NCBI GenBank assembly: GCA_002441085.1
Contig: DJVF01000011.1
Coordinates: 4,514 to 65,767 of the forward strand
Length of the DNA stretch: 61,254 nt
Origin: Patescibacteria group bacterium UBA6263
GTDB lineage: Bacteria; Patescibacteriota; Gracilibacteria; Absconditabacterales; Absconditicoccaceae
Direction of reading: 5' to 3'
Shown here: positions 4,492 through 60,685 of the stretch, one piece after another
Position numbering within the stretch: position 1 is the stretch's first letter
How the letters are laid out: each line of letters begins with the position of its first letter
The notes under the pieces: generated by a model
What the model saw: only the letters and a program-made list of their open reading frames with translations
Database searches by the model: none
Told to the model about the DNA's origin: nothing
Position numbers and translations under genes: made by a program

Positions 4492-5058
4492 ATGAAAATT
4501 TTTCATAGTTTTGATACTTCTTTAAGGAAAAAAAAATTTAAGGAACATCAGAACAAATGGGGTATTGAGAATGTCTTGTGTTTTGGTAAGAGTAGATTAT
4601 ATCGAATTGTTAAAGTTATTATACCTTTACTTTTTTTGATTGTTGTATCATTTATTTTAGTGAATTTATTTGATGCTTGGGTAGGAGAAACATATCTTAT
4701 ATATTTTATATTTATTGTAATTATTGCAGATTTTTTTTTAATCATGCCAATATTATGAAAATATATAGAATATAAGATGGATTTTGTTATAATTATACCT
4801 GATGCTATTATCAAGTATGATCAGAAATGATTATTTAAAAAAAATGTAATTACGATAAATTCACAAGGTATTAAAACAATAAGTGTTCAAAGAAGTAATC
4901 TTTTATATAGTATTTTTAATAATTGAGATTTGATTTTTTTATCTGAATCTATAGGTCAGCATGAAGAAGAAAGTCATGGAGAAGTTACTTTACATCGAAT
5001 TGCCAAACCAGAAAAGAAAAAAGATAAAATAATAAAAATACTTAAAATTAACTATTAA
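4492..5058 (+). CDS. membrane protein with a bacterial PH-like (YdbT/bPH_2-like) domain
   Basis: Two TM segments, then DFVIIIPDAIIKYDQKGLF..ISVQRSNLLYSIFNNGDLIFLSE. It is a paralog of the next gene. Confidence 0.55.
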
Positions 5059-5062
5059 AAAC

Positions 5063-5626
5063 ATGAGAATCTTTTCAAATTTTGATACAAAACTTAGACA
5101 AAGTAAATTACAAGAATATCAGGATATTTATGGTCATGATAATGTTTTGATTTTACAAAAGAGCAGGTTTTTTTTGATTATCAAGACTTTGCCCAAAATA
5201 ATATCATTTTTAATTGTTATTATTATTATTTTTTTTGTTAGTAAATGGATTTTTGCTCAATTAGATGTGGATTATACAATATATATTGTTATATGAACTT
5301 TGCTTATATTACTAAGTTTTTCTTGGCCTGTTATAAAACATTTGATAGATTATTACATGGATTTTGCTATAGTCACACCCAAGGCGCTAGTAATGTTTAA
5401 TCAAACATGACTATTCAAAAGAGATATGGCTACTGTAGATGTAGATAAAATCAAAACTATTCTAGTCAAAAAAAGATGAATTTTGTTTAGTGTTTTCAAT
5501 AATTGAGATTTGATTTTTTTGTCTGAATGAGATAGTGAAAGATATGGAGAAATAAAACTTTATTTTATATACCAGCCTGAAAAGAAAAAAGAAATAGTTT
5601 CCAAAATTATCTGATATGAAATTTAA
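5063..5626 (+). CDS. membrane protein with a bacterial PH-like domain (tandem paralog)
   Basis: Same architecture and colinear motifs: FDTKLR.., DFAIVTPKALVMFNQTGLF.., ILFSVFNNGDLIFLSEG. Confidence 0.55.
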
Positions 5627-25683: not shown

Positions 25684-25714
25684 AAATCTTCTCTTTATTG
25701 AGGAGATTTTTTTT
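25684..25714. terminator. intrinsic terminator between convergent transcription units
   Basis: Stem AATCTTCTC / GAGGAGATT (one mismatch) followed by a T-run. Confidence 0.4.
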
Positions 25715-26639
25715 ATAATCAAAGGTATGTGTGTGATAAGAAATCTGGAATTGGCTGTTTGAGAAATGACTCTAATGATATAGTTTTGGTCCAGTATTTT
25801 CATATACCTTTTATATAAAATGTACTTGTTGGTAGATATTCGTTGATTCAAAGTGTTGGTTGTATATCTACACAAAAATTGATTGAGGTTTGAAATTCTT
25901 TGGTGTTTCATAATATAATGAAGCTTTTTAACAATGATGAATGTTTTTTATATTCATTAGATAGGTTGCTTAATCATATTGGTATATTGGATCAATAAAC
26001 TTCAAATGAATTTTTAAAATCGTTGATTATATTTGGATTGTTTGTAGATCAAGTTTTTATAAATATTCAATCTTGTAATATATCTGATCATGACATTATG
26101 ATTATTCATATTGTTATTTCTTTGTTTGGAGAAGGTGTTTTTAATTTTATGTTTGGTAATTTATCTGCCATATTTTTATAAGTTGGGCTGTTGATCAATT
26201 TATCATAGTTTGTGCCTAAATTTATTTGTCTAAATAAAGGTAATATAAATGATTGTCATGTATTTAATGATATAGGATTGTTGCATCAAGTATCAGTCCG
26301 TGTATTTAGAGAAAAAGAATTAGAATTTCAAGATATGCTTGTATAAAGATTACAATTTTTACATAAAAAATTTGATTGCACAATATCGTCTCATGTATTT
26401 ATAGTATTTTCAAATCAGACTCAGTTGTTTTGTATCTGGGTTAAAGATATTTCCAATCAGGCTTTGGATAAATAATATGATTTGTAATATCCATGTATTA
26501 TATTGTTGTATTCCATCAATTCTCTAATATAATTGGTGCTTAATATTCAAATCAATGAAGATGCTATCAATATAAAAAGAACCAAAATACTTATATTTCA
26601 TTTATTATTAATCTTTTTTGACTCATGATTGTTAGTCAT
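25713..26639 (-). CDS. PilX-like minor pilin / pilus-associated protein (308 aa)
   Basis: It has the hydrophobic N-terminus GNISILVLFILIASSLIGILS but no G|FTLIE motif. Its start overlaps the upstream pilin stop. It is the last gene of the pil operon. Confidence 0.5.
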
Positions 26640-27273
26640 TGTTATCTATTGAATTAAAAAATTGTTGTATAGGGATATTTATTCTATTGTATCGATGCTG
26701 ATTGTATGTGATAGAATAGGCTTTGGATATAATAAAAAATCATGGCTTGTGTATGCATCCTATATAGTTTGTACAGGTTGATATTCAATTAATATAATTT
26801 TGAGGGGAATCATATGGTACTATTTTGAATATAACTTGAGATAAATATGTAGTTTTGGGATTGCTTATATCGACTATTTGTCAATTATTATTTACCTGTA
26901 AATGACATTGATATCATCATGTTAAAAAATCTATACTTATTCATGGATCTAAGCAAGTTCATGTACTATATATTTCAATATTTCAATCTTGTCAGCTTAG
27001 ATATAGTATCTTGGTAAGTCATTTTTTGATTGATAGAAATCATGTTCATAGCTTGGTATGATATTTGTCATAATCTATGCTATTTCTGTCAGAAAAATTT
27101 TGTATTATTTGAGATATAAATAAGATTTCTTGTGTAACTTTTTTTTCTTGTTCTATCCTAAATGATATTTGAGAAATAAAAGTATATGTTTTCATCAAAA
27201 CAATAGATAAAATTCATATTATCACAAGTACTATAATTGTTTCGACTAGTGTAAATCATTTGGCTTTGTTCAT
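26632..27273 (-). CDS. type IV pilin-like protein (prepilin N-terminal methylation motif)
   Basis: MNKAKGFTLVETIIVLVIIGILS. The cleavage-site Gly is a TGA codon. Confidence 0.8.
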
Positions 27274-27277
27274 TTGG

Positions 27278-27880
27278 CTAATATTCTCCTATAAAACTTT
27301 CTAAAACAATTTCTCATGTCTTGGATCATTTGCTAAACATTACATGAGATTCTAATTTAATTATTTTATCAGTTGGTAATATTTGTCACAATTCTATTAT
27401 TCAAGTAAGTACTATATATCTCGAAAATATAGTTGTTTGTCAATCGGTATTGTTGTGATTGTACCAAAAAATTGTATTTCAATTTATATTTCATGAATGG
27501 TAGTATAGTCTATTATCTTGGAAATTATTGGAGTTTGTCCATTTAAATTTGGGATATTTGTCTGGTTCTAGTCATATTTGTAAATATTTTCATAAAGTCC
27601 CAGAAGCGAATGTTCAATCGCAAAATTGAGTGAGAGGAGTTATATTTTGAGGATCTGTAAATATACAGTTTCGATTTAGTTCTTTGGCAAGGTTAGCATC
27701 TCTAGCATTGAATACTAGTTCAATTCATTCTTTGGCTAAAAAGGTTGCTATATTTTTGGTTTTTGTATCATCTAATTTTTGTAAATTATTTGTAATTAAA
27801 TAAAAAACTGCCATTATTCATATTGAAAAAACAGCTATTATTATAATTATTTCTATTAAGGTGAATCACTTATTTTTCAT
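27278..27880 (-). CDS. type IV pilin-like protein
   Basis: MKNKGFTLIEIIIIIAVFSIGIMAV. The cleavage-site Gly is a TGA codon. Confidence 0.8.
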
Positions 27881-31240: not shown

Positions 31241-34200
31241 ATGAACCAGAAAGATTTGATAAATAGTATGCTCGAATATCGAAAAAAATATGATATCTTT
31301 AAAAAATCTGTTGATCAAAGATCAGATAAATTACAATCAACAACATATGATTGACCTCCTTTTGCGTCTTGAACTCCACATTTTGGACATGGATTGACTT
31401 CGTCAATGAAAGACACTATTTTTAGATACAAAAGTATGAAGTGATATAGGGTCAATAGAGATTGGTGATGGGATTGTCATGGATTGCCTGTAGAAAAATA
31501 TGTAGAGAAAAAATTGTGAATTGATGGTAAAAGAGATATAGAGGAAAAAATAGGAGTAGAAAAATTTATTGAAGAATGTAGGGCTTCTGTAGGTAATATT
31601 AGTTGAGAATGGAGAACTTTTGTTGATCAGATATGAAGACGAGCCGACATGGATAATGCATATTTTACAATGGATCTGGATTTTATGGAATCGGTAATAC
31701 GAGTTTTTCAGAATATGTATAATCAAAATCTGGTTTATAAATGATTTAAAGTGCAACGATGTTGTCCTAGTTGTGCAACTGCGCTTTCCAATTCTGAAGT
31801 AAATGATTGATACAAAGATAAACAAGATCAGGCTATAACTATAAAATTTAAAATAAATGGTGGCATTAAAAATCGAGAAGGTTCGGAAACGACTTCTGAT
31901 TTATGTGTCCATGTTGTTACATGTGCCATCAAACAAGATAATAAATTTCTTCAATTTTATCACTCAAAGAGCCTAAGATATGAATTTCCTGGTGGGAAAA
32001 TAGAAAAATGATTTACTATCATGGATACCGTAAAAAAAGAAATTAAAGAAGAACTTGGTGTTGAGGTAAACGAAATTATTGAACTTTGAAGTTTCAAAGA
32101 AATCATAAAATGACATCTTTTGAATTTACATTACGTAGATGTGATTATAGAAGGCGAACCGAAAAATATGGAACCAGAAAAACATCCACAAATGATTTGG
32201 GCTGAAGTTATTAAATCTGAAAATAATCTGTGATTTGCAGTGAAGATTGAAAATACTATCATTGATGATGGTTTTGAAATTATGAATCAGTTTCCTGATC
32301 TGTATTACTATCATAAAAATTTTGCTAAAGAAATTACTAAATTGCAACAAAAAGAACCAGCTAATATTAATATTCTTGCATGGACTACTACTCCACGAAC
32401 TTTACCTAGTAATATGTTTTTGGCTGTAGGTAGCGATATTCGTTATTACATGGTTTTTGATAAAAGTAGTAAAGAATATTATGTAATAGCTGAAAGTCTA
32501 ATTAAACAATATTATAAGGATAGTAATGAATATATTCTGATTAATGTTTTGAAATGATCTGATTTGGAATGAATAAAATATGAACCGCTTTTCCCATACA
32601 TAAATCAAAGTAATATTGATCAAAAATATAAAGATCAGTTTTTTCAGATTATTAGCTGAGAATTTGTAAGTACAGAAGATGGTACTTGAATAGTACATAT
32701 TGCGCCAGGATTTGGAATGGAGGATTTTGATGCAGTTACAAAAATTTTACCTAGGGAAGATTCTAAAAATTGGCTTTTTATGCCTGTAAATGACTTTGGA
32801 GAATTTACAGATCAAGTAAATGATTATCAGGGGAAATCTGTTTTTGATGTAAATAAAGAGGTAATTACAAGACTTAAAGAAGAAAAAAAACTTATATGAC
32901 AGAGATCTTATTCCCATTCTTATCCTCATTGTTGGAGATGTGAAACTCCATTGATATCCAAAGCAATTACTTCTTGGTTTATCAAAGAACAAGAACTTAC
33001 AAAAATAACAGTTCCAAATGCTGAAAATATTTGATTTGTACCTGAAACTGTAAAAAATAGATTTCGCGATACTCTCAATTCTGCTCCAGATTGGAATATT
33101 TCTAGAAATAGATATCGATGATCTCCGTTACCTGTCCGAGAAAATGTCAATAATGAAGATGATAAAATGATTGTATGAACATTGGATGAAATATGGAAAA
33201 ATTCTATAAATTGATCTAAAAACCTTACAAAGCTCGTTTTTGTAAGGCATTGAAAATCTGAATATAACGTTCCAGTGCCACATTTAGTCGATAATTATGG
33301 CAAAGCTCATCTTGTAGATGAATGAAAAGAGCAAGCAAAAAAACTTGTTGAAAATTTAAGATTTTTGTCTGAAGATATAGATAATGTTGTATTTGTTATA
33401 TCACCATTGCCTAGAGCTTTTGAAACAATATTGCCATACCTTGAAAAAATATTGTGAAAATCTGAGATGAAAATTGTAGTTAAAGAATATGAAAAGGTTT
33501 TGCAAAATTATCAAAAACTTTATGATGAATGAAAACTATATAATTATATAATTGAATCTTGAGATAAAAATAGATTTGAGATATGAAAAAATATATATAT
33601 TGATTTTAGAGCAATCGAAATGTTTATACCTGAATATCAGGACAAGGAACATGATTGTAAAATTTTGAAACGAGAGGATGTAAAGCAATGAAAATGATGA
33701 GAATCTATGTTTGATATGTACAAAAGATGTGATTGATATTTACTTGATATTACATCAAAATTTAAAACCAAAACTGTTGTTACTGTCTCTCATGCAGAAG
33801 CAACGCTGATGATGTTTAAAAAAATTAGAGATTTTGATTACAATAAAAAGAAAAAAAACTTTATGCTGCGCAATGGAGAGATTAAAATTTATTATCGAGA
33901 TAATGATCATAATAAAGAAGTAGATTTACATAAACCTTATGTAGATAGTTATCGATTTAATATAGATTGAAATGAATATCGTAGGATACCTGAAGTAATG
34001 GATTGTTGGTTTGAATCTTGATCTATGCCATTTGGACAAGCATGATATATTTGAGTCGAAAGCAAAAAGTCCTTAGTTTATCCTGCAGAATTTATTATTG
34101 AGTGATTGGATCAGACTAGAGGGTGGTTTAGAGCAATGCATGTTGTAGGTAATGCAATTATGAAAAAAAATTCTTTTGATAATGTTATTATCAATGGTAT

Positions 34201-35365
34201 GATACTTGCTGAAGATGGTCGTAAAATGTCTAAAAGTTTAAATAATTATCCTGATCCCAAGTACGTTTTTGAAAGATATTGATCTGATGCTTATAGGTTG
34301 TACTTATTATCTTCTCCTGCTGTTAGAGCTGAGCCAATGAGATTTGCAGAGAAGTGAGTAGATCAGATTTATAAGGATTTTACAAGTGCTATTATCAATT
34401 CTTATAATTTTTTTGAGACTTATGCTAATGTAGATAATTTCAAATCTGATTGAACTAATGTTTATTTTGTAGGACATACTGAATCAGATTGAAAAGATGT
34501 TGACTCAGAAACTTCATCAAAATGAATAGAATCTATGAAAGATAAAAAATTGATTGAAGATGTAATTAGAACTAATCCTGATATTATTTATGTTTCTCCC
34601 ACTAAAAGAACAATCCAAACTGCTGAAAAATTTGCAGAAATATTAAAAGAATATACATGAAAAATTGTAGAAATAAAGATTGAAGAATCTTTGGCTTCAG
34701 AGGGAGATAGTATAGAATTTTATAATGATGTCTTGAATATAGATAAATCAAAAACAATTTTGATAGTATCTCATCTTTCAAGCTTCAAAAAATTATGGGC
34801 TAATATTTTTGATGATTCAAAAGATGCTAATATCAATCATCTTGAATTTATCAAATTGCCAAGCTACAAGATTGAAAATGAATTAGACAAGTGGATATTA
34901 GCTGAATTGAATAAGGTCTGAATAGAAATGGAATGATTTATGGATGTTTATGTTCTTGATGGTGCAGCTAAATCTGTTCTTGGATTTGTAGATAAAATGA
35001 ATAATCGATATATAAGGAGATCTAGAAGAAGGTTTTGGTCTTCGGGTATGAATTTGGATAAAATATCTGCTTATAATACATTACTAGAAGTAATGGAAAC
35101 TTATATGAAAATATGTTCTTGTTTTGCGCCATTTATATCAGAATATATATATCTTAAGTTGCAAAATTTTAAAAATATTGATTTTGTAGATTGAGAATCT
35201 GTCCATTTAAAAACATTACCTATTTTTAATAAATTATATGTAGATAAAAGTCTTTTAGATGAGATAGCTACAGTTAGGAGAATAATATCTTTAGGGCTGT
35301 TTATAAGATCTAAAAATGGTATAAAAGTTAAACAGCCTTTGGGTGTAATGCATATAAAATTTTAA
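31241..35365 (+). CDS. ileS: isoleucyl-tRNA synthetase (type 2-like), 1374 aa, with three inserted domains and no C-terminal domain
   Basis: The HIGH motif is PHFGHGL and the KMSKS motif is RKMSKSL. Other IleRS motifs are GWDCHGLP, AWTTTP(CGA)[21 protein letters not shown](CGA)GSPLP and DQTRGWF. The gene ends 10 codons after IKVKQPL. Confidence 0.9.
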
Positions 35366-35463: not shown

Positions 35464-35784
35464 ATGCCAACAAAAAAACCAAGTCCCAAAAAAAAGGTTA
35501 CTACAAAGAAAACAAATTTTGATAAAAAACTACAGGAGGTAAAGAAAACTGTTGAAAGTGAAGCAAAGTTTGTAGAAAAAGAATCCAAAGAGATTGCTAC
35601 TTGAATTAGTAAACGATGGAAAATTTCTTCTTGAGAAGAGAAACTGTATTCTATTTTTTGAATTATTTTATTGGTTATAGGTTTGTATATTTTATTAAAT
35701 AATTGATGGTGGTTGTTTGTAAGTGCTATTTTTATTATACTTTGAATTCTTTTTGTTTCTGGATACTTTCATAAAAGTAAATAA
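35464..35784 (+). CDS. small membrane protein (106 aa), Lys-rich N-terminus
   Basis: MPTKKPSPKKKVTTKK.., then two hydrophobic segments and a TAA stop, followed by a terminator. Confidence 0.5.
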
Positions 35785-58808: not shown

Positions 58809-59561
58809 TTATTCTTTTAAGTTGGAATAAGCTTGTTCTATATCTTCATCTTGCTCCAATCCATTTATTAGATTTAATAGATTCTGTTTTTCTATATCTG
58901 GTATATTTACTTCGTTATTGGGAATATATTGGATATCTGCATTGATTATATTGTAGCCCATATCTTCTATTTGTTTTTTGGTTTGAGCAAAATCTTGTTT
59001 GGCTGTATATGCAATTGCTATTGATTGATCTATAGAAAAATCATTTGCTGAAGTTTCTAGTATGTCATTTTCAAATTCTAGCTCATTTAAAGGAGCTACG
59101 TTTTCAATTTCTTTTCATTTAATGTTTTGTATCTGTTTTTTTCAATTGATTATAATTATTCACTTTTCTGTAAATTGTCGAGAAACAGATCCTGGTTGTC
59201 ATAAATTTCATCAATATTTATTCATCAGTAATTTGATGTTTTGAGATGTCCTATTGGTGTTTTGTGTGAGTGCTTTGATGATTATGGCTATTCATCATGG
59301 TCAATATCATTCGTATAGAATTTCTTGTAAGTCTTCTCATTCTGATTGTCATGATCATTTGAGTATAGCTCTATCTATAATATCTCTAGGAACTCAATGA
59401 TATCTTGCTTTTTGTAATGCTAGATCTAATGAAGGATTCATTTTGGGATCTGCTCATTTTTTGGCTGCAATTTGGATGGTTTTGGAAATGATACTATATA
59501 TTTTGGATTTTGCATCATCTCAAGATGCTTTTCTAGCTGCTATACTGTGTCGACGTCACAT
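58809..59561 (-). CDS. yebC: YebC/PmpR-family transcriptional regulator
   Basis: [72 protein letters not shown](CGA=W)QF. Confidence 0.9.
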
Positions 59562-59590: not shown

Positions 59591-60034
59591 TTAAGAATTA
59601 TTTTGGTGAATGACTGTTTTGATATCATCTAATTTGTATCATTTTTTGATCAGTTTTTGTATTATTTCAAATCCTTCTATTGATTTTTTCTTGTAGATTT
59701 GAATTTCTTTGTTTATTTTTTTGTGTATTCATTGTAATATATCTTGGGAATTTTGATCTAATATATCTTGCACTATATCTGGATCTATTCATTTTTGGAT
59801 CAATTTTTGTTTGATTATTATTGGTGGTTTTCATTTATTTATCAACTCACTATTGATATAACTTTGGGTAAATTTTTGATCATCAACGTATCATAGATCT
59901 TTGAGTTTGGATATTGTGTTGTTTACTTCATCGGAACTAAATCATTTCTGAAAAAGTTTGATAGTCAATTCTTTTTGAGTTTTGGGGTAACGTGAAATGT
60001 ATTTGATAGCAAATTGGAAGCAAGTATTGGTCAT
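59591..60034 (-). CDS. recX: RecX-like regulatory protein
   Basis: AIKYISRYPKTQKELTIKLFQKGFSSDEVNNTISKLKDLGYVDDQKFTQSYI..KQKLIQKGID shows the three-repeat helical pattern. Confidence 0.7.
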
Positions 60035-60061: not shown

Positions 60062-60685
60062 TTATTTTTTGAGAGCAAAATTGATTGTAGACTCTTCGTT
60101 TGTAAAAAGAGCAAAAATATTTCAATCTGGTTTTTTGTTTTCTTTGGTAATGGTGTTTAATAATGCTTCTCATTTTAGAAAATCTACAAACTCTTGTATA
60201 ATTTCGCTCAAAGTATTGTCATCTGTTTGATAGATCATATCTACTTTGGAGTCTACACTATAATCAGCGTCTTTTCTCATTTGATTTATAAATCTAGATA
60301 TTTCACGAGCTATTCATTCTTTTTGTAATTGAGGAGATATTTCCAAGTCTAATTTGGCTATAATATTTCAATCTACGGCTATATCATTTCAGTCTATTCA
60401 TTGATAAGCTATTTCATAATCTTCTTTTGATAATATTCGTTCATTTTTTTGATCGTCAAAAACCTTTATTTTTGAATCTTGTAGTTCTACAATATTTCAT
60501 TGTTTGGAAAATTGTATGATTTTGCCTGTGTCTTTGGTAAATTTTGATGAGATTTGAGATCATATAGGTTTGTATATTTTGCTAATGTTTAGAGAATCTG
60601 GAAGTATATCTATTTTTTTGACATTTACCTCTTCTTGTATGATATCTCAATATTTATTTAATAGATTTTGTAACTCTTGAGTCAT
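60062..60685 (-). CDS. stand-alone IleRS C-terminal domain protein (207 aa)
   Basis: YGDIIQEEVNVKKIDIL, KPIGSQISSKFTKDTGKI and LDLEISPQLQKEGIAREISRFINQMRKDADYSVDSKVDMIY. These match the segment that follows ..VRQPL.. in type 2 IleRS. Confidence 0.7.

What the first reader, a model, noticed from the sequence alone, without database searches (positions are those of the whole stretch)
60062..60685. Split IleRS: the C-terminal domain is a separate gene 25 kb away on the opposite strand
The main ileS ORF (31241-35365) stops with TAA ten codons after ..[14 protein letters not shown]. In type 2 IleRS that point is followed by about 200 more residues. The 207-aa ORF at 60062-60685 begins exactly with that continuation (..YGDIIQEEVNVKKIDIL.., KPIGSQISSKFTKDTGKI). 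It also contains the characteristic LDLEISPQLQKEGIAREISRFINQMRKDADYSVDSKVDMIY block. The domain therefore appears to be supplied in trans. Split aaRSs are rare. Examples I recall are Aquifex LeuRS and Nanoarchaeum AlaRS.
Basis: partly seen in the sequence, partly recalled or inferred. Interest (0 to 1): 0.75.

Follow-up and report, generated by a model that had tools for sequence, protein, structure and literature searches.

The report
Naturally split isoleucyl-tRNA synthetase in SR1 bacteria
In this recoded SR1 (Absconditabacterales) genome, and throughout that lineage, the enzyme that loads isoleucine onto its tRNA is encoded as two separate genes, so the module that reads the first anticodon base must join the catalytic body as a separate protein.

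Summary

- **Genetic code.** The window uses UGA=Gly, and CGA=Trp.
- **Large gene.** ileS (31241-35365, +) encodes 1374 aa and ends with a genuine TAA seven codons after KQPL. This point corresponds to residue ~824 of the 1032-aa Priestia megaterium IleRS2.
- **Small gene.** The 207-aa ORF at 60062-60685 (-) matches Pfam DUF5915 (E=7e-23) and aligns to IleRS2 residues 833-1012. It is the ARD2(+INS)+ARD3 anticodon-recognition module. There is no gap or overlap between the two pieces.
- **Key residues.** The small protein keeps the G34-reading Arg and Lys (R137/K138 = Pm R964/K965). The large chain keeps the A35/U36-reading Arg.
- **Not an artefact.** 65 of 80 related metagenome loci stop 6-9 residues after KQPL with TAA or TAG. 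Hundreds of stand-alone ~206-aa homologues exist (34-96% identity, dN/dS about 0.06), usually just upstream of recX. One divergent relative carries both halves on a single contig.
- **Sister lineages.** UGA-recoded Gracilibacteria and other relatives have the fused gene, so the fission happened once, at the base of Absconditabacterales.
- **What is inferred.** Assembly of the two proteins in trans was not shown here.
- **Prior reports.** I found no paper describing this split.
- **Classification.** It is a new variant of a known kind, the split aminoacyl-tRNA synthetases.

The parts
31241..35365 (+). ileS large subunit, 1374 aa (UGA=Gly, CGA=Trp). It is a type 2 IleRS catalytic body with HIGH (HFGH, aa 47-50), KMSKS (aa 995-999), the CP1 editing domain ([21 protein letters not shown]) and the anticodon-binding helical domain ARD1. 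It lacks ARD2 and ARD3.
   Evidence: PDB IleRS2 hits have E of 1e-157 to 1e-173, against about 1e-70 for IleRS1.
34853..35341 (+). ARD1 (Pfam Anticodon_1). It includes [13 protein letters not shown], whose fourth Arg corresponds to Pm R721, the residue that reads A35/U36.
   Evidence: The role of R721 is taken from bioRxiv 10.64898/2026.02.03.703510.
35342..35365 (+). C-terminal tail GVMHIKF plus the TAA stop. It has an alternating hydrophobic pattern and is equivalent to the short strand (SITIT / SLTLI) that precedes the first ARD2 helix in fused IleRS2. This is the fission point.
60062..60685 (-). ileS small subunit, 207 aa, 23.6 kDa, pI 4.7. It is a stand-alone DUF5915 protein, i.e. ARD2 (with the INS subdomain) plus ARD3 of type 2 IleRS.
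60365..60685 (-). ARD2 with the INS insertion (aa 1-107). The N-terminal helix LLNKYGDIIQEEVNVK aligns to the first ARD2 helix of fused enzymes. The invariant K39-P40 aligns to Pm K862, a D-loop contact.
60065..60364 (-). ARD3 (aa 108-207).
   Evidence: The domain definition is taken from the paper read.
60272..60286 (-). N134-Q135-M136-R137-K138, the G34-reading pocket. R137 corresponds to Pm R964 and K138 to Pm K965. N134, Q135, R137 and K138 are invariant in 24 stand-alone homologues down to 34% identity.
59591..60034 (-). recX-like gene immediately downstream of the small subunit. This neighbourhood is conserved across the split clade, which marks the small gene's stable separate locus.
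58809..59561 (-). yebC/TACO1-family gene, the third member of the locally conserved gene string.
31856..32362 (+). NUDIX-domain insertion (aa ~206-374) at the entry to the editing domain. It is found only in the split clade.
33155..33922 (+). Histidine-phosphatase (His_Phos_1) insertion, aa ~639-894. The RHG motif and the second His (VSHAEAT) are retained.
34442..34852 (+). Second His_Phos_1-like insertion, aa ~1068-1204. It is degenerate, with GHTES in place of RHGET.

Best explanation
This organism, an Absconditabacterales (candidate division SR1) bacterium that reads UGA as Gly and CGA as Trp, makes its only recognisable IleRS as two polypeptides.

**The two chains**
- The 159-kDa large chain activates isoleucine, transfers it to tRNA and edits errors. 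Through ARD1 it reads anticodon bases A35 and U36.
- The 23.6-kDa small chain is the ARD2(+INS)+ARD3 module. It docks non-covalently onto the end of ARD1.
- I propose that the large chain's C-terminal strand (VMHIKF) completes the ARD2 sheet. By internal ARD2/ARD3 homology, that strand is the missing first strand before the small chain's N-terminal helix.
- Once docked, the small chain closes the anticodon cleft. It reads G34 with R137/K138 and touches the D-loop with INS (K39).
- Anticodon recognition, which in IleRS2 is needed for the aminoacyl-transfer step, is therefore shared between two gene products.

**Origin**
- The fission happened once in the ancestor of Absconditabacterales, at a length-variable surface linker.
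- The 3' piece then moved to its own locus next to recX.

**Shown versus inferred**
- Shown: gene structure, homology, conservation, phylogenetic distribution and retention of functional residues.
- Inferred: heterodimer formation, strand complementation, and the requirement of the small chain for activity.
For: 1. **Clean break.** The large chain ends at Pm IleRS2 residue ~824 and the small chain starts at ~823-833. In fused relatives the two parts are contiguous in one frame, and the linker at this point varies by 0-6 residues.

2. **Real, conserved stops.**
- TAA in the window, TAA in L082, TAG in L083 and TAA in L085.
- 65 of 80 metagenome ARD1 loci end 6-9 residues after KQPL with TAA or TAG. 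None has a DUF5915 sequence within the fetched flanks (up to 10 kb each side).
- Protein fragments from relatives end within 0-2 aa of each other.

3. **Conserved stand-alone partner.**
- 429 clusters at 90% identity; the best 120 listed are 200-252 aa.
- The full-length hits among the top ~35 clusters at 50% identity are 198-215 aa stand-alone proteins; the shorter ones are fragments.
- 9 of 9 close GTDB species loci have open frames of only 210-289 codons.
- dN/dS is about 0.06 against the 78%-identical orthologue.

4. **Co-occurrence.** Both halves are present in the window. In the divergent L085 they lie on the same strand, 9.7 kb apart.

5. **Functional residues kept.** N134, Q135, R137 and K138 are invariant. 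The Pm R964A mutant loses aminoacyl transfer about 1e4-fold, and ARD1 R721 is likewise essential. The R721 equivalent is present in the large chain.

6. **Rosetta-stone logic.** UGA-recoded Gracilibacteria (L014, L015, L017, L021, L034) and other relatives have the fused gene. In an NJ tree the stand-alone proteins are monophyletic, with bootstrap 147/200.

7. **Fold.** The AF2 model (pLDDT 77.5) has the IleRS2 C-terminal tRNA-binding region as its best PDB match, E=1.6e-10.

8. **Precedent (own knowledge).** Shiba and Schimmel 1992 showed that E. coli IleRS cleaved at many sites reassembles into active enzyme in vivo.
Against: - There is no direct evidence of a complex and no multimer model.
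- There is no expression or proteomic data.
- The two genes are not co-transcribed and not syntenic, and no dedicated interaction extension is visible on either chain.
- I could not scan whole genomes of the clade for a second, complete IleRS.
- The bootstrap support for a single origin is moderate (74-80%).
- The strand-complementation detail rests on sequence pattern and domain homology, not on coordinates.
Confidence: 0.8

Rival explanations
1. The large chain is a self-sufficient, ARD2/ARD3-less IleRS. The small protein has become an independent, freely diffusing tRNA-Ile-binding factor (a chaperone, a delivery or specificity cofactor, or a sensor) rather than a stably bound subunit.
For: - The genes are unlinked and not co-transcribed.
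- The small gene sits in its own conserved recX-yebC neighbourhood.
- In P. megaterium IleRS2 the INS part is dispensable.
- Free-standing tRNA-binding domains derived from synthetases exist, for example Trbp111 and Arc1p (own knowledge).
Against: - The G34-pocket residues that are essential for the transfer step in cis are invariant in the stand-alone family.
- No copy of ARD3 or of a Zn-binding replacement remains on the large chain.
- The break removes nothing and adds nothing, as expected for a subunit interface.
Confidence: 0.13
2. Another, complete IleRS elsewhere in these genomes does the essential job. The split pair is then a decaying or neofunctionalised paralogue.
For: - Some bacteria, such as P. 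megaterium, carry both IleRS1 and IleRS2.
- Whole genomes of the clade could not be scanned here.
Against: - Both pieces are strongly conserved across a deep lineage with roughly 1-Mb genomes.
- The catalytic motifs HIGH and KMSKS and the editing motifs are intact.
- None of the loci fetched for the split clade showed a second ileS-like gene. The only extra hit is about 30% identical over short stretches, so it is another class I enzyme.
Confidence: 0.04
3. Artefact or covalent rejoining. Either the stop is a sequencing or assembly error or a recent pseudogenisation, or the two products are rejoined by a split intein or by RNA trans-splicing.
For: None found.
Against: - The same stop position recurs with TAA or TAG in more than 65 independent assemblies.
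- The tail after KQPL is only 6-9 residues long, and the small protein starts directly with sequence homologous to the fused enzymes, so there is no room for intein halves.
- No group II intron or any other Rfam family lies near either gene.
- In L085 ten genes, including dnaG, lie between the two halves.
Confidence: 0.01

Closest known systems
Type 2 isoleucyl-tRNA synthetase (IleRS2), e.g. Priestia megaterium IleRS2 (PDB 8c8u/8c8v) and yeast IleRS (8wnd)
   Same: - It has the same catalytic body, editing domain and ARD1-ARD2(INS)-ARD3 anticodon-recognition architecture.
- The same anticodon-reading residues are kept (R721 equivalent; R964/K965 equivalents).
- There is no Zn-binding domain.
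   Different: - The ARD2-ARD3 module is a separate gene product encoded 24.7 kb away on the other strand.
- The large chain carries three inserted domains: NUDIX and two His_Phos_1.
Aquifex aeolicus heterodimeric LeuRS (alpha/beta), a naturally split class Ia synthetase (own knowledge)
   Same: - It is a class Ia editing synthetase encoded by two unlinked genes.
- The two products together equal one canonical chain and assemble non-covalently.
   Different: - LeuRS is split inside the catalytic/CP region, so both halves build the active site.
- Here the cut lies between ARD1 and ARD2, separating a tRNA anticodon-recognition module from a complete catalytic and editing body.
- It is a different enzyme in a different phylum, and the trait spans a whole lineage rather than one genus.
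Nanoarchaeum equitans split AlaRS and other split genes of reduced genomes (own knowledge)
   Same: It is a fission of an essential translation enzyme in a tiny-genome, host-dependent organism. The fused form in relatives serves as a Rosetta stone.
   Different: This case is bacterial, involves a class I enzyme, and the cut falls at a different type of domain boundary.
Stand-alone synthetase-derived tRNA-binding or editing modules acting in trans (Trbp111, Arc1p, AlaX, YbaK/ProX, crenarchaeal ThrRS-ed) (own knowledge)
   Same: It is a small free-standing protein homologous to a synthetase appended domain that acts on the same tRNA.
   Different: - In most of those cases the module is an extra paralogue or an accessory function.
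- Here the parent enzyme has lost its own copy of a module that carries an essential identity-reading residue.
- The closest analogy is the crenarchaeal ThrRS-cat/ThrRS-ed pair.
Experimentally fragmented E. coli IleRS (Shiba & Schimmel 1992, own knowledge)
   Same: It shows that IleRS pieces can reassemble non-covalently into an active enzyme in vivo.
   Different: That case was artificial, used a type 1 enzyme, and is not a natural evolutionary state.

Membership tests
Type 2 isoleucyl-tRNA synthetase (IleRS2) | Class I signature motifs HIGH and KMSKS in a Rossmann (HUP) catalytic domain | tested here: met
   HFGH at aa 47-50 and KMSKS at aa 995-999 of the large chain. Pfam tRNA-synt_1 E=2e-113.
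Type 2 isoleucyl-tRNA synthetase (IleRS2) | CP1 editing domain with the Thr-rich WTTTPWTLP peptide and the GTGxVHxAP motif | tested here: met
   AWTTTP[CGA=W]TLPSN and [12 protein letters not shown] are present.
Type 2 isoleucyl-tRNA synthetase (IleRS2) | Catalytic body closer to IleRS2 than to IleRS1 | tested here: met
   PDB phmmer gives IleRS2 (yeast, P. megaterium, T. thermophilus) E of 1e-141 to 1e-173, against 1e-62 to 1e-72 for IleRS1 (S. aureus, Pm IleRS1).
Type 2 isoleucyl-tRNA synthetase (IleRS2) | Type 2 C-terminal organisation, ARD1-ARD2(+/-INS)-ARD3, with no Zn-binding domain | tested here: met
   All three modules are present and colinear with Pm IleRS2, but distributed over two polypeptides.
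Type 2 isoleucyl-tRNA synthetase (IleRS2) | Single polypeptide (monomeric enzyme) | tested here: not met
   There is a genuine TAA after ARD1, and the ARD2-ARD3 module is a separate gene. This is conserved in the clade.
Type 2 isoleucyl-tRNA synthetase (IleRS2) | Anticodon-reading residues (Pm R721 in ARD1; Q961/R964/K965 in ARD3) | tested here: met
   The R721 equivalent lies in the large chain. R137 and K138 are invariant in the small chain, and N134/Q135 stand in place of Q961.
Type 2 isoleucyl-tRNA synthetase (IleRS2) | Ile-tRNA(Ile) synthesis activity | not testable with these tools
   This needs biochemistry.
Pfam DUF5915 (PF19302) | Score above the curated gathering threshold over most of the model | tested here: met
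   81.7 bits against a cut-off of 27. Residues 14-185 match model positions 2-176 of 195.
Naturally split (heteromeric) aminoacyl-tRNA synthetases, Aquifex LeuRS type | Two separate genes whose products together are colinear with one canonical chain, with no loss or duplication | tested here: met
Naturally split (heteromeric) aminoacyl-tRNA synthetases, Aquifex LeuRS type | Both pieces retained together and under purifying selection in the lineage | tested here: met
Naturally split (heteromeric) aminoacyl-tRNA synthetases, Aquifex LeuRS type | Physical heterodimer, with activity that needs both chains | not testable with these tools
   No multimer prediction or experiment was possible.
Accessory trans-acting synthetase-domain paralogues (Trbp111 / AlaX / YbaK type) | The parent synthetase keeps its own copy of the domain, or never had it, so the free protein is an addition | tested here: not met
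   The large chain has no DUF5915 or ARD3 and no Zn-binding substitute. Sister lineages have the module fused.
Split-intein protein trans-splicing | An N-intein (~100 aa) at the end of the first product and a C-intein (~35 aa, ending HN plus a nucleophile) at the start of the second | tested here: not met
   Only 7 residues follow KQPL. The small protein begins MTQELQNLLNKY, which aligns directly to fused enzymes.

The most novel reading that the evidence does not exclude
The fission is more than a neutral break. It may have turned the G34-reading ARD2-ARD3 module into a dissociable, separately expressed specificity or regulatory subunit, so that the cell can tune or switch tRNA-Ile charging (for example GAU versus lysidine-CAU isoacceptors, or charging rate) by subunit stoichiometry.

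The split arose in the same ancestor as the clade-specific NUDIX insertion. Together they could define a re-engineered multi-activity IleRS holoenzyme, for example one coupling aminoacylation with hydrolysis of Ap4A or other nucleotide by-products.
Probability: 0.1. Interest if true: 0.85.

Novelty: new variant of a known kind. Interest (0 to 1): 0.6.

Why it matters
**What is new.** Split aminoacyl-tRNA synthetases are rare natural experiments on how these modular enzymes are built. To my knowledge, and within the searchable literature, no naturally split IleRS has been described.

**Why this cut is informative.** The break falls exactly between the module that reads A35/U36 and the module that reads G34. 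Reading of a single anticodon is therefore divided between two gene products. Recent work shows that G34 reading gates the chemical transfer step.

**What it makes testable.**
- Whether anticodon-to-active-site communication can cross a non-covalent interface.
- Whether C-terminal remodelling of IleRS, now argued to tune aminoacylation rate, extends to outright gene fission.

**Practical consequences.**
- The trait is a clean synapomorphy of Absconditabacterales (SR1), which includes human oral and predatory members.
- Genome annotators should label the 'DUF5915 domain-containing protein' as the IleRS beta subunit, and should not score ileS as truncated.
- IleRS is an antibiotic target, so a lineage-specific subunit interface is a conceivable selective target.

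Tried and rejected
- **Table 11 ORF calling**. Both genes appear shattered. The cause is the genetic code, not pseudogenisation.
- **Code-25 translations as tool input**. I worked around this with database orthologues P0001 and P0003.
- **Two-chain (multimer) prediction.** This was not possible with the tools.
- **A mixed alignment (A6)** meant to model a fused relative. MAFFT laid the small proteins over ARD1, so I dropped the second structure job.
- **Promoter/terminator scan around the small gene**. It is uninformative in 26% GC DNA: 21 hits against 13.8 expected.
- **Cluster look-ups for organism names**. Almost no names were returned.
- **Protein search with the NUDIX-insert region**. It returned only UGA-fragmented pieces, so it could not test 'NUDIX insert implies no DUF5915' at scale.
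- **Rfam scan**. Only one tRNA was found. There was no intron, no T-box and no other RNA near either gene, so RNA trans-splicing was rejected.
- **Split intein.** Rejected on sequence.
- **Link between the split and UGA recoding.** Rejected, because UGA-recoded Gracilibacteria have the fused gene.
- **Weak 'ileS' hits in L003**. They are about 30% identical over short stretches, so they belong to another class I synthetase, not a second IleRS.
- **NCBI organism labels of several MAGs** ('Peribacteria', 'uncultured bacterium'). They do not track the recoding or the split and were not relied on.

Full report
**1. The observation**

With the standard bacterial table neither gene is an ORF, because both are interrupted by TGA. 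The TGA codons fall on conserved glycines, for example [15 protein letters not shown]. Reading TGA as Gly gives one ORF of 1374 aa at 31241-35365 (+) and one of 207 aa at 60062-60685 (-). GC content is about 27%.

Twelve CGA codons in ileS are also informative. At least seven of them sit on universally conserved tryptophans, such as WTTTP[W]TLP, RNRY[W]G and NN[W]YIRRSR. This matches the CGA/CGG-to-Trp reassignment predicted for Absconditabacteria by Shulgina and Eddy (PMC8629427).

The ileS stop is TAA at 35363-35365, directly after ...[14 protein letters not shown]. Nothing DUF5915-like follows in any frame. The small ORF starts at ATG 60685 and ends at TAA 60062.

**2. What the two ORFs are**

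*The large ORF.*
- It is a type 2 IleRS. Pfam gives tRNA-synt_1 at E=2e-113 and Anticodon_1 at residues 1216-1369.
- PDB matches to IleRS2 have E of 1e-141 to 1e-173, against about 1e-70 for IleRS1.
- HIGH, KMSKS and the editing motifs are intact.
- Its last 167 residues align to P. megaterium IleRS2 (1032 aa) residues 672-819. The chain therefore ends at about residue 824.

*The small ORF.*
- It matches Pfam DUF5915 at 81.7 bits (cut-off 27).
- It aligns to Pm IleRS2 residues 833-1012 starting from its own residue 11.
- The two products abut without gap or overlap.
- An AF2 model of the 78%-identical orthologue (pLDDT 77.5) has the IleRS2 structures as its best PDB matches, at E=1.6e-10 and probability 1.0.

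*Domain assignment.* I use the nomenclature of a 2026 preprint on IleRS C-termini (bioRxiv 10.64898/2026.02.03.703510). In those terms the small protein is ARD2, with its ~80-residue INS insertion, plus ARD3.
- That paper shows that ARD3 R964 reads G34, with Q961 and K965 contributing. It shows that ARD1 R721 reads A35/U36.
- R964A or R721A lowers aminoacyl transfer about 1e4-fold and abolishes complementation.
- Here R721 maps to the large chain ([13 protein letters not shown]).
- R964 and K965 map to R137 and K138 of the small chain.
- N134, Q135, R137 and K138 are invariant in 24 stand-alone homologues down to 34% identity.

**3. Is the split real and conserved?**

*Stand-alone partner.*
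- A search of 5.8 billion proteins found 429 clusters. The 120 best are 200-252 aa DUF5915-only proteins at 55-96% identity.
- They are named, where named at all, as Absconditicoccaceae, SR1 or Absconditabacterales.
- An exhaustive HMMER search of 1.84 billion 50%-identity representatives was also run. Among its best ~35 clusters, every full-length hit is a 198-215 aa stand-alone protein and the shorter ones are fragments.
- Proteins with the module at the C-terminus of a 900-1400 aa IleRS appear only below that level.

*Truncated large chain.*
- Fragments of the large chain from relatives at 47-65% identity all end within 0-2 residues of the window's end. More distant ones, at 36%, run on into DUF5915.
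- At the DNA level the stops are genuine. L082 ends in TAA (ORF ≈1350 aa) and L083 in TAG (≈1390 aa). L085 ends in TAA (1375 aa).
- In a metagenome scan, 65 of 80 ARD1 loci end 6-9 residues after KQPL with TAA or TAG, and none has a DUF5915 sequence within the fetched flanks (up to 10 kb each side).
- Thirteen more distant loci are fused, and two are uninformative.

*Species-level genomes.*
- Among GTDB species genomes, the nine closest loci (L002-L010) have open frames of 210-289 codons around the match.
- UGA-recoded Gracilibacteria (L014, L015, L017, L018, L021, and L034 = CP042461) and other relatives have one ORF of 1037-1258 codons, apart from L018, which is cut by the contig end. That ORF contains ARD1 directly followed by the module.

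*Co-occurrence and selection.*
- The two halves occur together in the window.
- They also occur together in L085, a divergent member whose small protein is only about 38% identical. There they lie on the same strand, 9.7 kb apart, with ten genes between them, including dnaG.
- The small gene has its own stable locus. recX follows it in L001-L008, L010 and L084, and yebC follows as well in L001-L003.
- dN/dS against L001 is about 0.06, although dS is near saturation.
- In an NJ tree of C-terminal modules the 29 stand-alone proteins form one clade, with bootstrap 147/200, or 159/200 without the most divergent member.

*Conclusion.* There was a single ancient fission at the base of Absconditabacterales. 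It is not linked to the UGA recoding, because recoded Gracilibacteria are fused.

**4. How it most likely works**

*Shown.*
- The cut lies in a linker whose length varies by 0-6 residues among fused enzymes. The linker sits between a short hydrophobic-alternating strand after KQPL (SITIT, SLTLI; here VMHIKF) and the first ARD2 helix.
- No residues are lost.
- The residues that read all three anticodon bases are retained, but on two chains.

*Inferred.*
- The small chain binds the end of ARD1 non-covalently.
- In the AF2 model, ARD3 begins with a strand (residues 108-116) followed by a helix (118-139). ARD2 begins directly with the helix (residues 3-19).
- ARD3 is described as a structural duplicate of ARD2. 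The missing first strand of ARD2 is therefore plausibly the large chain's tail, which would give strand complementation.
- The assembled enzyme would then read A35/U36 with ARD1, read G34 with R137/K138, and contact the D-loop with INS (K39, which aligns to Pm K862).

Fused orthologues in sister clades support a physical interaction by the Rosetta-stone argument. So does the reassembly of artificially cleaved E. coli IleRS (Shiba and Schimmel 1992). Both points are from my own knowledge.

**5. Rivals**

- **A self-sufficient large chain plus an independent tRNA-binding factor.** This cannot be excluded without biochemistry. It is disfavoured by the invariance of the transfer-gating Arg and by the absence of any substitute on the large chain.
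- **A second, complete IleRS elsewhere.** This is unlikely for ~1-Mb genomes in which both pieces are this well conserved, but it was not tested genome-wide.
- **Artefact, pseudogene, intein or RNA trans-splicing.** All are refuted.

**6. Comparison and novelty**

Functionally this resembles the heterodimeric LeuRS of Aquifex and the split AlaRS of Nanoarchaeum. It also resembles the crenarchaeal ThrRS-cat/ThrRS-ed pair in separating a whole module.

It differs in three ways:
- It is a different enzyme.
- The cut site is different: it separates an anticodon-recognition module from a complete catalytic and editing body, and so divides reading of one anticodon between two proteins.
- It is a trait of a whole lineage.

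Public annotation calls the small protein 'DUF5915 domain-containing protein' or 'isoleucyl-tRNA synthetase'. I found no paper that mentions DUF5915 or a split IleRS. The recent IleRS C-terminus study does not mention it either.

Verdict: a new variant of a known kind. Interest 0.6.

**7. Seen in passing**

The large chain is about 550 aa longer than an ARD1-truncated IleRS2, because of three inserted domains that each pass Pfam thresholds.

- **A NUDIX domain at the entry to the editing domain.** It is present only in the split clade: the window, L082, L083 and L085. The Nudix box is canonical in L082 and L083. In the window it carries E-to-F and R-to-K changes.
- **A His_Phos_1 domain after the RNRYWG motif.** It retains the catalytic RHG and the second His. 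It is shared with some fused relatives (L011-L013, P0240, P0311).
- **A second His_Phos_1 domain before ARD1.** It is canonical in fused relatives (L021, P0280, P0281, P0311) but degenerate in the split clade.

I found no literature on these inserts.

Noticed in passing
window 31856-32362, 33155-33922, 34442-34852 (inside ileS): The IleRS large chain carries three inserted enzyme-like domains.
- A NUDIX domain lies at the entry to the editing domain. It is specific to the split clade. The Nudix box is canonical in L082 and L083, but in the window it has E-to-F and R-to-K changes.
- A histidine-phosphatase domain has intact RHG and second-His motifs.
- A second histidine-phosphatase-like domain is degenerate.
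Fused relatives carry one or both His_Phos inserts in a mosaic pattern. No literature was found.
   Followed up: partly
window-wide; e.g. ileS codons 14, 134, 154, 386, 626, 633, 886, 1256 and small-ORF codon 83: CGA codons sit on universally conserved Trp positions (WTTTP[W]TLP, RNRY[W]G, NN[W]YIRRSR). The organism therefore reads CGA as Trp in addition to UGA as Gly. This matches the Absconditabacteria reassignment predicted by Codetta (PMC8629427). Table 25 translations carry wrong Arg residues at these sites.
   Followed up: yes
L085 1-260 and 10001-10645: In a deeply divergent member of the clade the two IleRS halves lie on the same strand only 9.7 kb apart, with dnaG between them. In the window dnaG also follows ileS. 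This hints that the ancestral fission left the 3' piece downstream on the same strand, and that it was later relocated next to recX.
   Followed up: partly
L002, L003, L009, L021 (record titles): Several UGA-recoded MAGs are labelled 'uncultured Candidatus Peribacteria bacterium' in their record titles. Some of them carry the Absconditabacterales-type split IleRS, so the deposited labels look unreliable.
   Followed up: no
window 35464-35784 (+): A small 106-aa ORF lies between ileS and dnaG. It has a Lys-rich N-terminus and a hydrophobic C-terminal half. It has no homology to IleRS and was not examined further.
   Followed up: no
window 4492-5058 and 5063-5626 (+): Two adjacent paralogous ORFs of 187-188 aa have similar N-termini (MKIFHSFDTSLRKKKFKEHQ... 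and MRIFSNFDTKLRQSKLQEYQ...). This is a tandem duplication of unknown function.
   Followed up: no
window 25713-27880 (-): A run of ORFs has pilin-like N-termini (GFTLVETII..., GFTLIEIII...). This is a type IV pilus or pseudopilin cluster of the kind common in CPR bacteria.
   Followed up: no
L084 (GOS marine contig, GC 52%): A GC-rich marine relative also has the stand-alone DUF5915 gene followed by recX. The split is therefore not confined to the low-GC members of the lineage.
   Followed up: partly
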